A stretch of 64,000 nucleotides of DNA from a virus. A model generated the notes under the pieces. That model ran no database searches, was not told the origin of the DNA, and saw only the letters and a list, made by a program, of their open reading frames with translations. The stretch is taken from IMG/VR virus record IMGVR_UViG_3300045988_159706; one strand, given 5' to 3'. Below are positions 19,014 through 19,136 of the stretch, piece after piece. Position 1 is the first letter of the stretch. Each line of letters begins with the position of its first letter. The position numbers and the translations under genes were made by a program.

Positions 19014-19136
19014 AAAGTCTCTTCAGCAAAATTTATAGCATGGAGGCACTATGGTCACAGGTTCAATTCCTGTTTAATAGAAAAGTTCTATTAATAGCTC
19101 AGTTGGTAGAGCGATAGTTAATATAATAGAGACTTT
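19014..19136 (+). ncRNA. circularly permuted tRNA-like RNA (P1) with a CAGCAA box
   Basis: Order: AAAGTCTC, TTCAGCAA..., ACTAT, T arm ACAGG-TTCAATT-CCTGT, TTAATAG, 7-nt loop, CTATTAA, D arm GCTC-AGTTGGTA-GAGC, ATAGT, ..., GAGACTTT; all four stem pairs are perfectly complementary. Confidence 0.7.

What the first reader, a model, noticed from the sequence alone, without database searches (positions are those of the whole stretch)
19014..19136. Circularly permuted tRNA-shaped RNA P1
The 3' half of a tRNA precedes its own 5' half. ACTAT plus T arm (ACAGG-TTCAATT-CCTGT) plus TTAATAG come first, then a 7-nt loop. CTATTAA plus a canonical D arm (GCTC-AGTTGGTA-GAGC) plus ATAGT follow. The acceptor stem (7 bp) and the anticodon-like stem (5 bp) are perfectly complementary. 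The element is closed by an 8-bp outer helix, AAAGTCTC/GAGACTTT. G18/G19 and the T-loop consensus are intact, so the tRNA elbow should form, but there is no free acceptor end and no 7-nt anticodon loop. This topology is that of permuted tRNA genes (described, as I recall, in the red alga Cyanidioschyzon) and of YrlA-type Y RNAs, which are tRNA mimics without a free CCA end.
Basis: partly seen in the sequence, partly recalled or inferred. Interest (0 to 1): 0.85.

Follow-up and report, generated by a model that had tools for sequence, protein, structure and literature searches.

The report
Phage Y-RNA-like tRNA mimic
This small phage RNA, shaped like a tRNA with its acceptor end closed, belongs to a large and apparently undescribed RNA family encoded beside genes for a Ro60-like RNA-binding protein, so it is most likely a phage Y RNA, and its conserved "handle" resembles the unexplained Class I RNAs of social amoebae.

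Summary
Window 19014-19136 (+) folds as described: an 8-bp outer helix, a 5-bp closing stem, a T arm, a closed 7-bp acceptor hairpin and a D arm. Relatives keep these helices through compensatory changes. In 49 distinct sequences from unrelated phages, 93% of pair cells are paired. The tertiary Levitt pair also covaries (G15:C48 in 33, A15:U48 in 13).

P1 is not a permuted tRNA gene or a decaying duplicate. The outer helix plus the invariant UUCAGCAA is a separate module, a terminal stem followed by (U)UACAGCAA. The window holds about seven copies of this module. Hundreds more lie in arrays next to a DUF2828/vWA protein gene, here 26703-28394. The predicted fold of that protein best matches a phage Ro60 (PDB 9KOP) and Xenopus Ro60 (1YVR).

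ACAGCAA density on the gene strand is 2.3 per kb in the first kb downstream of the gene, against 0.03 per kb on the other strand.

The best reading is a YrlA-like Y RNA for a divergent Ro60 clade. It lacks the YrlA GNCGAA motif and scores 31 bits against an Rfam cut-off of 69. RNA-protein binding is inferred, not shown.

The handle closely resembles Dictyostelium Class I RNAs (G-stem-CUUACAGCAA...stem-CUG). This is a lead worth testing.

The parts
19014..19021 (+). 5' strand of the terminal (outer) helix, AAAGUCUC. It pairs with 19129-19136.
   Evidence: Invariant in 9 orthologues. The same helix and motif occur in the distant phage contig L084, 440 nt downstream of its Ro-like gene.
19022..19029 (+). 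Frame motif UUCAGCAA, the P1 variant of the family motif (U)UACAGCAA. Proposed protein-binding handle.
   Evidence: Invariant in all orthologues. The motif with a stem is found 11 times on the + strand of the window, against 1.97 +/- 1.14 in shuffles. It is enriched about 70-fold downstream of Ro-like genes.
19030..19047 (+). Variable 5' linker between the frame motif and the tRNA-like core.
   Evidence: Sequence and length vary among orthologues. Family members have linkers of 4-29 nt.
19048..19118 (+). Permuted tRNA-like core. It runs: closing stem ACUAU/AUAGU, variable region GGUC, T arm 19057-19073, closed acceptor hairpin 19074-19094 (7 bp with a 7-nt loop), U8 A9, D arm 19097-19112, G26.
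   Evidence: R2 covariance model, 80.2 bits. Covariation in 49 distinct family members. Tertiary nucleotides and 15:48 covariation. Rfam YrlA alignment.
19119..19128 (+). A-rich 3' linker.
   Evidence: Unconserved and A-rich in orthologues. Family members have 2-13 nt here.
19129..19136 (+). 3' strand of the terminal helix, GAGACUUU. It is followed by UUAU and then the 5' end of tRNA-Pro at 19141.
20738..20852 (+). P2: a second permuted tRNA-like RNA (core 20756-20839). It is closed by a different, longer bulged helix (CUAAUUCACU/AGUGAGUUAG) and has no CAGCAA motif.
   Evidence: R2 68.8 bits. Fold. Two compensatory acceptor changes in relatives.
21260..21398 (+). P3: a third permuted tRNA-like RNA (core 21305-21386) in the same kind of frame as P1 (AGGUUAC-UUCAGCAA ... 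GUAACCU). It has a weak closing stem and an extended acceptor hairpin.
   Evidence: R2 44.6 bits. Frame. In L013 the acceptor is replaced by a new 7-bp stem.
17084..17141 (+). Frame-only element (AGGUGAC-AU-ACAGCAA ... GUCACCU), 10 nt upstream of tRNA-Ile.
18144..18211 (+). Frame-only element (AGGUAUC-AA-ACAGCAA ... GAUACCU), 5 nt upstream of tRNA-Asp.
21062..21117 (+). Frame-only element (GGUAACU-UACAGCAA ... AGUUACC), upstream of tRNA-Lys.
22103..22168 (+). Frame-only element (AAGGUCUC-UUACAGCAA ... GAGACCUU), 5 nt upstream of the tRNA at 22173.
   Evidence: R1 23.8 bits..
23839..23893 (+). Frame-only element (GGCUACAU-ACAGCAA ... GUGUAGCC), just after tRNA-Phe.
26703..28394 (+). Gene for a 563-aa Ro60-like protein: a helical-repeat ring plus a vWA domain with an invariant DxSxS MIDAS motif (Pfam DUF2828 + DUF7788). 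Proposed protein partner.
   Evidence: Pfam. AlphaFold model with pLDDT 82.5. Foldseek top hits are 9KOP phage Ro60 (E 8e-7) and 1YVR Xenopus Ro60 (E 2e-6). The MIDAS residues D358, S360 and S362 are invariant. Mycobacteriophage homologues are annotated 'Ro-like RNA binding protein'.
26700..26760 (+). The start of the Ro-like mRNA resembles a frame: AGAUGU (containing the AUG) ... AAAGCAA ... GCAUCU.
   Evidence: In 16 of 56 homologues the exact ACAGCAA lies in codons 3-5 with an enclosing stem.
18918..18990 (+). tRNA-Trp, 23 nt upstream of P1. Probable co-transcript.
19141..19217 (+). tRNA-Pro, 4 nt downstream of P1. RNase P cleavage at its 5' end would create the 3' end of P1 (inferred).

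Best explanation
P1 is a stable non-coding RNA of the Y-RNA type, made of two modules.

Module 1 is the 'frame'. The 5' and 3' ends pair in an 8-bp helix, and the invariant UUCAGCAA follows its 5' strand directly. This is the proposed handle bound by the phage's Ro60-like (DUF2828+vWA) protein, encoded at 26703-28394.

Module 2 is inserted in the loop of the frame. It is a tRNA mimic with a T arm, a closed 7-bp acceptor hairpin and a D arm on a 5-bp closing stem. It folds into the tRNA L-shape but cannot be charged or decode. It would present a tRNA elbow and acceptor helix to tRNA-recognising factors such as RNase P, the CCA-adding enzyme, modification enzymes, RNA-repair enzymes or an exonuclease. 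That would tether them to, or gate, the Ro-like ring, as YrlA and Yrn1 do for bacterial Rsr and PNPase.

P1 is probably cut out of the polycistronic tRNA transcript. Its 3' end would come from RNase P cleavage of tRNA-Pro, 4 nt downstream.

Shown: the fold, its conservation and covariation, the frame family, the genomic linkage to the Ro-like gene, and the Ro60-like fold of the protein.

Inferred: transcription, processing, protein binding, and any role in tRNA/RNA surveillance during infection.
For: 1. Structure under selection. In P1 orthologues all 7 acceptor pairs are compensatory and 100% paired. In 49 distinct cores from unrelated phages, 93.3% of cells are paired. The covariation score is 0.883, against 0.213 in shuffles and 0.10-0.16 for slid partners, and all four helices covary.

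2. L-shape. The 15:48 pair is G:C in 33 and A:U in 13 of 49. U8, A14 and A21 are present in 49 of 49, and GG in the D loop in 48 of 49. PMC4201824 used the same test for YrlA.

3. YrlA is the only Rfam family that spans the element (31.2 bits). Its D arm UAGCUCA..GGUAGAGCG is identical to the YrlA consensus.

4. The partner protein has a Ro60 fold with an invariant MIDAS motif.

5. Linkage. In 63 loci with 42-57% identical Ro-like genes, 40 of 51 strong core hits lie 0-4 kb downstream of the gene and 4 lie within 1 kb upstream, all on the gene strand. ACAGCAA occurs at 2.28 per kb in the first downstream kb, against 0.03 per kb on the other strand. 53 of 60 loci have at least one framed element nearby.

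6. The same arrays flank DUF2828 genes in phages of Leptolyngbya, Mycobacterium, Bacillus and Listeria and in 5 of 9 MAG contigs.

7. Reverse test. Of 118 stretches fetched by the DNA pattern alone, 14 of 62 framed hits contain a Ro-like gene, always on the same strand. None of the 56 unframed hits does. L084 was first fetched by P1's own 15-mer and later proved to encode the protein 440 nt upstream.

8. The Ro-like mRNA start mimics the frame in 16 of 56 homologues, as expected if the protein binds this motif.

9. Precedent. Phage phiLo Ro60 binds two adjacent Y-like RNAs and host PNPase (PMC12135203). M. smegmatis YrlA, which has a 7-bp acceptor, is cut by RNase P and receives CCA (PMC4201824).
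Against: - No expression or binding data exist. Everything functional is inferred from sequence.
- P1 lies 7.6 kb upstream of the Ro-like gene, P2 5.9 kb and P3 5.3 kb. All are outside the 4-kb criterion used for YrlA, and nothing frame-like lies in the intergenic DNA next to the gene.
- P1 has UUCAGCAA, one base short of the family motif. P2 has no frame motif at all.
- Frames are also linked to tRNA arrays. 22 of 62 framed stretches held tRNAs, 154 of 158 on the same strand, and 48 of 62 had no Ro-like gene within the short stretch held. Linkage to the protein is therefore partly confounded with linkage to tRNA clusters.
- The protein has no sequence-level match to Pfam TROVE or to any PDB chain. 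The Ro60 assignment rests on a predicted fold with TM 0.44-0.59.
- The core alignment used for covariation was fitted to the model, which favours the structure.
- Two relatives carry deletions that destroy the P1 core (L014, L008), so the tRNA-like module is dispensable in some lineages.
- The frame covariance model I built could not confirm the window's frames.
Confidence: 0.65

Rival explanations
1. The frames, with or without tRNA-like inserts, are cis-acting processing or stability elements of polycistronic tRNA transcripts. They would act as spacer hairpins that guide RNase P/Z/E or block 3' exonucleases. Their proximity to the Ro-like gene would arise only because that gene sits in the tRNA region.
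For: In the window every frame lies 4-14 nt upstream of, or just after, a tRNA gene. Framed elements fetched by pattern are strongly associated with same-strand tRNAs: 22 of 62 loci against 0 of 56. A 7-bp acceptor mimic can be an RNase P substrate (PMC4201824).
Against: - In L142 and L147 the tRNAs are packed without frames, while the frames cluster in the 0.1-1 kb directly after the Ro-like gene.
- Mycobacteriophage Rumpelstiltskin has three frames right after its Ro-like gene, with no tRNA in the 9.4 kb examined.
- A processing hairpin does not explain an invariant single-stranded ACAGCAA, nor the copy of it around the Ro-like start codon.
Confidence: 0.15
2. The tRNA-like domain is a decoy or sponge that works on its own. 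It would soak up a host tRNA-targeting defence nuclease or a tRNA-modifying or tRNA-binding factor, independently of the Ro-like protein.
For: The phage carries about 28 tRNAs, an RlaP RNA-repair nucleotidyltransferase, NADAR and NAD-salvage genes, which is a counter-defence repertoire. The mimic keeps every elbow determinant.
Against: - It has no anticodon loop, which is the usual target of anticodon nucleases.
- The core is nearly always embedded in the frame (38 of 51 exactly, and about 46 of 51 counting the ACAGCAU and ACUGCAA variants), which a free decoy would not need.
- The core is lost in some relatives while the frame is kept (L014).

This reading is not exclusive of the main explanation.
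Confidence: 0.1
3. P1 is a genuine circularly permuted tRNA gene. Its transcript would be circularised or ligated and re-cut to give a functional tRNA, as in Cyanidioschyzon merolae.
For: The gene order is 3' half, linker, 5' half, with perfect acceptor and anticodon-stem complementarity. RNA-ligase-associated genes occur in related phages: RtcB near the DUF2828 gene in Listeria phage LMTA-94, and RlaP in the window.
Against: - The sequences that would become the anticodon loop are unconserved, A-rich and lack U33.
- No bulge-helix-bulge is present.
- Family members carry only a T arm, or nothing, in the same frame.
- The frame motif, not an anticodon, is what is conserved.
- No RtcB was found in the window.
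Confidence: 0.02
4. P1 is a decaying remnant of a tandem tRNA duplication (3' half of copy 1 plus 5' half of copy 2) with no function.
For: It lies in a tRNA array. Tandem tRNA junctions do give weak hits to the same model, 26-37 bits. Two relatives show deletions.
Against: - Whole stems are replaced compensatorily among close relatives while pairing stays at 100%.
- There are 49 distinct cores in unrelated phages, with tertiary covariation.
- Synteny with the Ro-like gene is conserved.
- P1 scores 80 bits, against a tandem-tRNA background of at most 37 bits.
Confidence: 0.02

Closest known systems
YrlA (Y RNA-like A; Rfam RF02553; Chen et al. 2014, PMC4201824)
   Same: The modular plan is the same. 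The ends pair in a stem that carries a protein handle. The body is a tRNA mimic in the order closing stem, V, T arm, closed acceptor-like stem-loop, D arm. The D arm has the same near-invariant sequence (GCUCA..GGUAGAGC), and the G15:C48 / A15:U48 covariation is the same. It is encoded on the same strand as a Ro60-type gene, often in several copies, alongside smaller siblings without the full tRNA domain (YrlB is comparable to the frame-only elements).
   Different: - The handle motif is (U)UACAGCAA directly after the 5' strand, not GNCGAAN0-1G.
- The Rfam score is 31 bits against a cut-off of 69, and the Rfam model misses the Rumpelstiltskin member altogether.
- The partner protein is a DUF2828/DUF7788 protein with no detectable TROVE sequence match.
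- In this window the RNAs sit inside a tRNA array 5-8 kb from the gene.
Thermus phage phiLo Ro60 with Yrl1/Yrl2 (PDB 9KOP; PMC12135203)
   Same: It is a phage-encoded Ro60-fold protein and the best structural match to the window's protein. It has small stem-bulge RNAs encoded next to the gene that it binds, and it forms a complex with host PNPase.
   Different: The phiLo RNAs were picked by a CGAA motif and have no tRNA-like domain. The phiLo protein is a recognisable Ro60 homologue. Here the link between protein and RNA is only genomic.
Dictyostelium Class I RNAs (Rfam RF01414; Kjellin et al. 2021, PMC7919456)
   Same: - Size is 42-65 nt.
- The 5' and 3' ends pair in a short stem that covaries.
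- The conserved single-stranded motif CCUUACAGCAA lies directly after the 5' strand. The phage frames have C-(U/A)-(U/A)-ACAGCAA-A-U with the same flanking preferences.
- The termini match: 5' (AA)G and 3' CUG(U) in Dictyostelium, AAG...CUGAU in phages.
- There is an A-rich stretch before the 3' strand.
- The genes are clustered.
- The Rfam model hits three of the five Lbo-JY46 elements at 39.3, 30.7 and 26.2 bits (cut-off 41.5).
   Different: - Class I RNAs are eukaryotic, driven by the DUSE promoter, and reported as unique to dictyostelids.
- The known direct binder is the RRM protein Rnp1A/CIBP.
- No tRNA-like inserts are reported.
- No phage element reached the Rfam cut-off, and the window's own elements gave no hit at E <= 10.
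- Whether Dictyostelium has a DUF2828 protein could not be tested here.
Circularly permuted tRNA genes of Cyanidioschyzon merolae (Soma et al. 2007; from my own knowledge)
   Same: The 3' half of a tRNA is encoded before its 5' half, joined through the acceptor ends.
   Different: Those genes yield real tRNAs, with an anticodon loop and bulge-helix-bulge processing by a splicing endonuclease. P1 has no anticodon loop and no such motif, and bacteria lack that enzyme.
Two-piece tmRNA from permuted ssrA genes (alpha-proteobacteria, some cyanobacteria; from my own knowledge)
   Same: It is a bacterial example of a permuted tRNA-like domain, in the order T arm, acceptor 3' strand, intervening loop, acceptor 5' strand.
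   Different: tmRNA has a tag reading frame, pseudoknots and a free CCA end after excision of the loop. ARAGORN finds no tmRNA in the window.

Membership tests
YrlA (RF02553) | tRNA-like domain in the order closing stem, V region, T arm, acceptor-like stem-loop, D arm | tested here: met
YrlA (RF02553) | tRNA tertiary-interaction nucleotides, with compensatory G15:C48 / A15:U48 | tested here: met
   P1 has U8, A14, G15:C48, G18G19, A21 and T54-A58. In the family, 46 of 49 members have G:C or A:U at 15:48.
YrlA (RF02553) | GNCGAAN0-1G motif near the 5' end (putative Ro60 contact) | tested here: not met
   The 5' region AAAGUCUCUUCAGCAAAAUUUAUAGCAUGGAGGC has no GNCGAA. UUCAGCAA is the conserved motif instead.
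YrlA (RF02553) | Score at or above the Rfam gathering threshold (69 bits) | tested here: not met
   31.2 bits, with E 6e-5 on 451 nt and 0.0087 on the whole window.
YrlA (RF02553) | Encoded within 4 kb of a Ro60/TROVE orthologue, on the same strand | tested here: not met
   P1 is on the same strand but 7.6 kb upstream of a Ro60-fold, non-TROVE gene. For the family as a whole the criterion holds for 44 of 51 cores.
YrlA (RF02553) | Bound by the Ro60 orthologue in vivo | not testable with these tools
   Needs RIP or EMSA.
Ro60/TROVE proteins (partner protein 26703-28394) | Ring of helical repeats plus a C-terminal vWA domain with a MIDAS motif | tested here: met
   AlphaFold model with pLDDT 82.5 and pTM 0.84. 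Full-length Foldseek matches to 9KOP and 1YVR, the only hits with E < 1e-3. The DxSxS motif is invariant.
Ro60/TROVE proteins (partner protein 26703-28394) | Sequence match to Pfam TROVE (PF05731) or to solved Ro60 chains | tested here: not met
   Pfam gives only DUF2828 and DUF7788. One of 34 homologues has a trace vWA_Ro60 hit at E 0.16. phmmer and hmmsearch against PDB find no Ro60.
Dictyostelium Class I RNA (RF01414) | Short covarying stem joining the 5' and 3' ends, with the conserved ~11-nt motif (..U..C..CAA; CCUUACAGCAA) right after the 5' strand | tested here: inconclusive
   The frame-only elements meet it; for example 22103-22168 has GGUCUC-UUACAGCAA ... GAGACC. P1 has UCUUCAGCAA, which lacks the A. 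Sequences were compared with the D. discoideum set from the paper's supplement.
Dictyostelium Class I RNA (RF01414) | Length 42-65 nt | tested here: not met
   P1 is 123 nt because of the tRNA-like insert. The frame-only siblings are 51-68 nt.
Dictyostelium Class I RNA (RF01414) | Score at or above the Rfam gathering threshold (41.5 bits) | tested here: not met
   There was no hit in the window at E <= 10 and none at the gathering threshold in 7 array-rich loci. The best was Lbo-JY46 element b at 39.3 bits.
Dictyostelium Class I RNA (RF01414) | DUSE promoter about 60 nt upstream; dictyostelid host | tested here: not met
   The context is a phage, inside a bacterial-type tRNA operon.
Permuted tRNA gene (C. 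merolae type) | After processing, a complete tRNA with a 7-nt anticodon loop (U33) is formed; bulge-helix-bulge at the junction | tested here: not met
   The flanks of the closing stem are unconserved and A-rich with no U33. The conserved element is the frame motif.

The most novel reading that the evidence does not exclude
The stem+(C)UUACAGCAA frame may be the cognate RNA handle of the DUF2828 branch of Ro60-like proteins, across phages of at least four bacterial phyla. The Class I RNAs of dictyostelid amoebae, found in 2004, abundant, of unknown mechanism and reported as unique to Dictyostelia, may be eukaryotic members or descendants of the same RNA family. If so, Class I RNAs would be Y-RNA analogues. 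Their missing partner would be a DUF2828/vWA protein, possibly acquired with the RNA from bacteria or phages that the amoebae eat. P1-type RNAs would be the version of this family that carries a tRNA mimic.
Probability: 0.3. Interest if true: 0.9.

Novelty: new variant of a known kind. Interest (0 to 1): 0.72.

Why it matters
Y RNAs with tRNA-like domains are known from bacteria and a few mycobacteriophages, but what the tRNA mimic does is still open. This work shows three things.

First, a second and sequence-distinct class of such RNAs exists, defined by a terminal stem plus UACAGCAA.

Second, the class is very common. Hundreds of copies occur in arrays of 3-8, in phages of cyanobacteria, actinobacteria, Firmicutes and Bacteroidota-type metagenomic contigs.

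Third, it travels with a protein family (DUF2828/DUF7788) that Pfam still lists as of unknown function, and whose predicted fold is Ro60.

Together these give DUF2828 a concrete and testable ligand. They provide dozens of natural variants of the tRNA-mimic module: permuted, unpermuted, T arm only, or absent. They also suggest translational autoregulation through a ligand mimic at the start codon.

The resemblance to Dictyostelium Class I RNAs would, if real, turn a 20-year-old puzzle into a testable hypothesis. It would also be a striking case of an RNA-protein module shared between phages and a eukaryote.

For phage biology, the RNAs sit among tRNA, RNA-repair and NAD-salvage genes. That placement points to a role in protecting or policing the translation apparatus during infection.

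Tried and rejected
- **GenBank phages.** A megablast of 18700-21500 found nothing. blastn of the P1 region hit only the neighbouring tRNA-Pro.
- **Lbo-JY46.** The permuted-core model R2 found only tandem-tRNA junctions at 28 bits or less in the two parts fetched. The informative elements there are frame-only or carry only a T arm. Record positions 26910-75312 were not fetched.
- **R3, a covariance model of the frame.** I built it from 41 loop-trimmed elements. It failed because it had no insertion data and penalised real loops. Only 21063-21117 reached 16 bits. I used a stem+motif scan with shuffles instead.
- **Rfam Dicty_Class_I_RNA.** There was no hit at E <= 10 on the window and none at the gathering threshold on 7 array-rich loci.
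- **Rfam YrlA on the Rumpelstiltskin, Tsamsa and LMTA-94 loci.** No hit at E <= 0.1.
- **Sequence searches of the protein against PDB.** The single sequence and the profile gave only noise. NCBIfam gave nothing.
- **Promoter and terminator scan of 15000-24500.** Promoter-like counts equal the shuffles, and no site defines a P1 transcription unit.
- **Papers not held.** Burroughs & Aravind 2016 (NAR 44:8525), which from memory describes Ro/TROVE and Band-7 modules with cognate ncRNAs, and two Wolin-lab reviews were not available. The supplement of Chen 2014 listing phage YrlAs is not held. I therefore cannot exclude that some DUF2828-linked RNAs were already listed there.
- **Literature searches.** Searches for ACAGCAA-type motifs, DUF2828 and DDB_G0281243 found no description of this family.
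- **Dictyostelium DUF2828.** The truncated proteome files in the Kjellin supplement gave nothing usable.
- **P1 as a tandem-tRNA false positive.** This is the caveat raised by Chen et al. I rejected it because no tRNA is called on either side within the element, and the two acceptor strands pair with each other and covary.
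Full report
**1. The observation**

It reads: outer helix AAAGUCUC/GAGACUUU, closing stem ACUAU/AUAGU, variable region GGUC, T arm ACAGG-UUCAAUU-CCUGU, acceptor strands UUAAUAG/CUAUUAA joined by a 7-nt loop, U8 A9, D arm GCUC-AGUUGGUA-GAGC, and G26.

- ARAGORN and Rfam ordinary tRNAs in the window, but none at this position.
- A composite T-loop-to-D-arm pattern occurs once, against zero expected.
- The MFE fold recovers the helices, with z = -2.95.
- A scan for orphan T arms finds three permuted elements, P1, P2 (20738-20852) and P3 (21260-21398). 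It also finds an unrelated split tRNA at about 37.8 kb.

**2. Conservation in relatives**

No close relative exists among GenBank phages. The ORF downstream of tRNA-Pro retrieved 12 IMG/VR contigs with 50-100% aa identity, and a 15-mer search added one more variant.

The nine distinct P1 orthologues keep the outer helix and the next eight bases, UUCAGCAA, invariant. The internal stems differ:
- Acceptor stems: UUAAUAG/CUAUUAA, CCAAUAG/CUAUUGG, CCAACUG/CAGUUGG, UUAUUAG/CUAAUAA, CUGGGUA/UACUCAG.
- T stems: ACAGG, GCGGG, AGGGG, ACGGG, AUGGG.
- D stem: GCUC/GAGC or GUUU/GAAC.

On the MAFFT alignment all seven acceptor pairs change on both sides and stay 100% paired. The T stem is 100% paired and the D stem 97%.

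Two relatives carry deletions. L014 keeps the frame but has lost most of the core. L008 has lost the 5' acceptor strand, and also the D arm of P3.

**3. What the outer helix is**

A covariance model of P1 also hit 22103-22168. That element has the same helix and CAGCAA but no tRNA part. A stem+motif scan then found a family on the + strand:
- 17084-17141
- 18144-18211
- P1
- 21062-21117
- P3
- 22103-22168
- 23839-23893

Each has a 7-9-bp terminal stem, then 0-3 nt, then ACAGCAA (UUCAGCAA in P1 and P3), a variable loop, and the 3' strand. Each lies just before or after a tRNA gene. The window has 11 such frames on the + strand and 2 on the - strand, against 1.97 +/- 1.14 (maximum 5) in dinucleotide shuffles. 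P1 and P3 are therefore frames with a permuted tRNA-like insert.

**4. The protein**

ORF 26703-28394, on the same strand, matches Pfam DUF7788 (a vWA-like domain) and, weakly, DUF2828.

- It has more than 1,600 homologues, many on contigs of 100-390 kb.
- An AlphaFold model from 34 homologues has pLDDT 82.5 and pTM 0.84.
- Its only strong Foldseek matches in the PDB are 9KOP (E 7.7e-7) and 1YVR, Xenopus Ro60 (E 2.3e-6). Both align over the full length.
- 9KOP is the Ro60 of Thermus phage phiLo, which binds two adjacent Y-like RNAs and host PNPase (PMC12135203).
- The MIDAS motif DxSxS is invariant.
- Sequence methods see no TROVE relationship.
- tblastn links the protein to mycobacteriophage genes annotated 'Ro-like RNA binding protein'. 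These are themselves DUF2828+DUF7788 proteins that pass Pfam thresholds.

Neighbouring genes are Band_7/SPFH, NADAR, NAD-salvage enzymes and, further away, RlaP. In Listeria phage LMTA-94 the DUF2828 gene lies near RtcB and a DUF1768/NADAR gene.

**5. Linkage of the RNAs to the protein**

In Leptolyngbya phage Lbo-JY46 (44% aa identity) five frames follow the gene directly, separated by UGAUAA linkers. One of them carries a T arm.

I fetched 63 IMG/VR loci with 42-57% identical genes.
- The 7-mer ACAGCAA on the gene strand occurs at 2.28 per kb in the first kb downstream.
- It falls to 0.69 per kb at 1-2.5 kb, and to about 0.1 per kb far away.
- It is 0.03 per kb on the other strand in that first downstream kb.
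- 53 of 60 loci have at least one framed element within -1 to +4 kb.

A model of the permuted core alone (R2; the loops of the training sequences were trimmed so that they would align) scores P1 at 80, P2 at 69 and P3 at 45 bits. The tandem-tRNA background is 37 bits or less. R2 finds 48 further cores at 35 bits or more in the 63 loci, all on the gene strand. With the window's three that makes 51: 40 lie 0-4 kb downstream of the gene and 4 within 1 kb upstream. Four of them look like tRNA junctions.

Of the 51, 38 sit in an exact stem+CAGCAA frame. Most of the rest use ACAGCAU or ACUGCAA.

The same arrays flank DUF2828 genes in other genomes:
- Mycobacterium phage Rumpelstiltskin has three, and the middle one carries a permuted core.
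- Bacillus phage Tsamsa.
- Listeria phage LMTA-94.
- Five of nine MAG contigs.

A reverse test gave the same answer. Of 118 stretches fetched only by ATAAG-N6-TACAGCAAA, 62 had the stem. Fourteen of those contained a Ro-like gene, always on the same strand. None of the 56 stretches without the stem did.

There is a caveat. Framed stretches are also enriched in same-strand tRNAs, 22 of 62 against 0 of 56. Most framed stretches held no Ro-like gene, but they are short pieces of long contigs. In L142 and L147 the frames cluster right after the gene, while the neighbouring tRNAs are packed without frames.

**6. The tRNA-like core as a family**

On the model-fitted alignment of 49 distinct cores:
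- 93.3% of pair cells are standard pairs.
- 20 of 21 pairs change on both sides.
- The covariation score is 0.883, against 0.213 for shuffles (0 of 500 reach it) and 0.10-0.16 for slid partners.
- The closing stem is 80% paired with many pair types.

The tertiary Levitt pair covaries (G15:C48 in 33, A15:U48 in 13, other in 3). U8, A14 and A21 are invariant. GG is present in 48 of 49 D loops, and the T loop is UUCRANY. This is the same argument Chen et al. used for YrlA (PMC4201824).

Inserts vary: permuted core, T arm only, none, and in L150 12991-13100 an unpermuted tRNA body.

**7. Comparison with known families**

YrlA is the closest functional and architectural match, and the only Rfam family aligned across P1. 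Membership nevertheless fails on three counts: the GNCGAA motif, the gathering score, and, for P1 itself, the 4-kb rule. The Rfam model also does not detect the Rumpelstiltskin member. The DUF2828-linked RNAs are therefore a distinct variant, and no Rfam 15 family covers them.

Unexpectedly, Rfam's Dictyostelium Class I RNA model hits three Lbo-JY46 frames at 39.3, 30.7 and 26.2 bits, against a cut-off of 41.5. The curated D. discoideum sequences, for example DdR-21 GUUGAC-CUUACAGCAA-...-GUCAAC-UG, share several features with the phage frames:
- the terminal stem
- the motif and its position
- the flanking base preferences (C at -3, U at -2 and -1, A at +1, U at +2)
- the 5' G and the 3' CUG
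- the A-rich 3' loop segment
- the size, and the clustering of genes (PMC7919456)

Against this, no phage element passes the Rfam cut-off. The published binder is an RRM protein. I could not determine whether dictyostelids have a DUF2828 protein. One DdR-21 pull-down protein, DDB_G0281243, is uncharacterised.

**8. Mechanism**

I commit to the following model.
- P1 is co-transcribed with tRNA-Trp and tRNA-Pro. This is inferred, since the promoter scan was uninformative.
- It is released by tRNA-processing enzymes.
- It is bound through its stem+UUCAGCAA handle by the Ro-like ring.
- Its L-shaped, uncharged tRNA mimic recruits or competes for tRNA-recognising factors. This specialises the RNP for surveillance, repair or turnover of tRNA-like substrates during infection, by analogy with the Rsr-Y RNA-PNPase complex and the rsr-yrlA-rtcBA operon (PMC4201824, PMC12135203, PMC7824862).

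An extra hint that the protein binds the frame comes from the gene's own start. In 16 of 56 homologues the ORF begins AUG-UUY-NAC-AGC-AAA inside a stem aAG-AUGUU...AACAUC-UG. That is a frame built around the start codon. The window has a degenerate version. This suggests autoregulation.

Confidence that P1 is a selected, structured member of this Ro-linked family is about 0.9. Confidence in the Y-RNA-type mechanism is about 0.65.

**9. Verdict**

The finding is real and was correctly described. Its YrlA-type reading is supported and the permuted-tRNA-gene reading is rejected. It is a new variant of a known kind. It reveals a widespread and apparently undescribed RNA partner for a protein family of unknown function, with a possible link to Dictyostelium Class I RNAs.

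Noticed in passing
window 3204-3274 (+): Pistol self-cleaving ribozyme: Rfam RF02679, 70.3 bits against a cut-off of 34.5. It lies upstream of the first tRNAs.
   Followed up: no
window 37143-37830 (+): An orphan tRNA 3' half (T arm GUGGG-UUCGAGU-CCCAC plus acceptor strand CCUCCGUA, at about 37780-37826) follows directly after an HNH-endonuclease-like ORF (37143-37598), downstream of tRNA-Arg 36971-37045. It looks like a tRNA gene interrupted by an endonuclease-carrying insertion or intron.
   Followed up: no
window 20950-21030, 41494-41584, 6542-6615, 21129-21216 (+): Unusual tRNAs. ARAGORN reports anticodons CUA ('Pyl') and UCA ('SeC'), which could be amber and opal suppressors. It also reports a tRNA with an irregular anticodon loop. 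tRNA-Lys(UUU) has a 15-nt extra arm.
   Followed up: no
window 26700-26760; also L142 7410-7472, L143 5870-5924, L154, L169, L180, L182, L184, L210, L211, L214: The 5' end of the Ro-like ORF mimics the frame RNA. The AUG sits in the 5' strand of a stem of at least 6 bp, and codons 3-5 spell ACAGCAA in 16 of 56 distinct homologues. The window has AGAUGU..AAAGCAA..GCAUCU. This may be translational autoregulation. Protein-coding constraints (MF.SK ... TSAF) may contribute.
   Followed up: partly
L150 12991-13100: A frame (AAG-AUACCU-AACAGCAA ... AGGUAU-CUGAU) carries an unpermuted tRNA body with D arm, anticodon arm and T arm. Rfam tRNA scores 52.6 bits over model positions 6-65. The terminal stem takes the place of the acceptor stem.
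   Followed up: no
L014 1508-1582; L008 5796-5910 and 8226-8330: Deletion variants in close relatives. L014 retains the P1 frame but has lost most of the tRNA-like core (75 nt left). L008 has short deletions, flanked by direct repeats, that remove the 5' acceptor strand of P1 and the D arm of P3. These could be real decay or assembly artefacts.
   Followed up: partly
L084 5604-5693: A phage contig whose Ro-like protein is only 52% identical carries the very same frame sequence as P1 (AAAGUCUC-UUCAGCAA ... GAGACUU), with only a T arm inside. It lies 440 nt downstream of the Ro-like gene. A second, permuted core follows at 5730-5810.
   Followed up: partly
window 24416-32268 and 61048-62145: Gene context: Band_7/SPFH (24416-26029), tRNA-Tyr, NADAR (26166-26645), the Ro-like gene, isochorismatase/nicotinamidase-like (28865-29446), NAMPT/NAPRT-like (30014-31498) and NAD synthase (31480-32268). 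This is an NAD-salvage block of the kind phages use against NAD-depleting defences. An RlaP RNA-repair nucleotidyltransferase lies at 61048-62145.
   Followed up: no
window 8825-12800 (+): The phage encodes an ion-transport protein, a periplasmic-binding-protein/OmpA fusion (9597-11123), an ABC permease and an ABC ATPase. This is an unusual transporter cassette for a phage.
   Followed up: no
window 20738-20852 (P2): P2 has a well-conserved permuted tRNA-like core but no CAGCAA frame. It is closed by a 13-16-bp bulged helix (GUGCUAAUUCACU / AGUGAGUUAG-AU-GCAC) that is nearly invariant in relatives. It may use a different handle or partner.
   Followed up: partly
L197 7393-7726: A phage-encoded tmRNA (Rfam RF00023, 51.9 bits) lies about 2.3 kb upstream of the Ro-like gene in one family member.
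   Followed up: no
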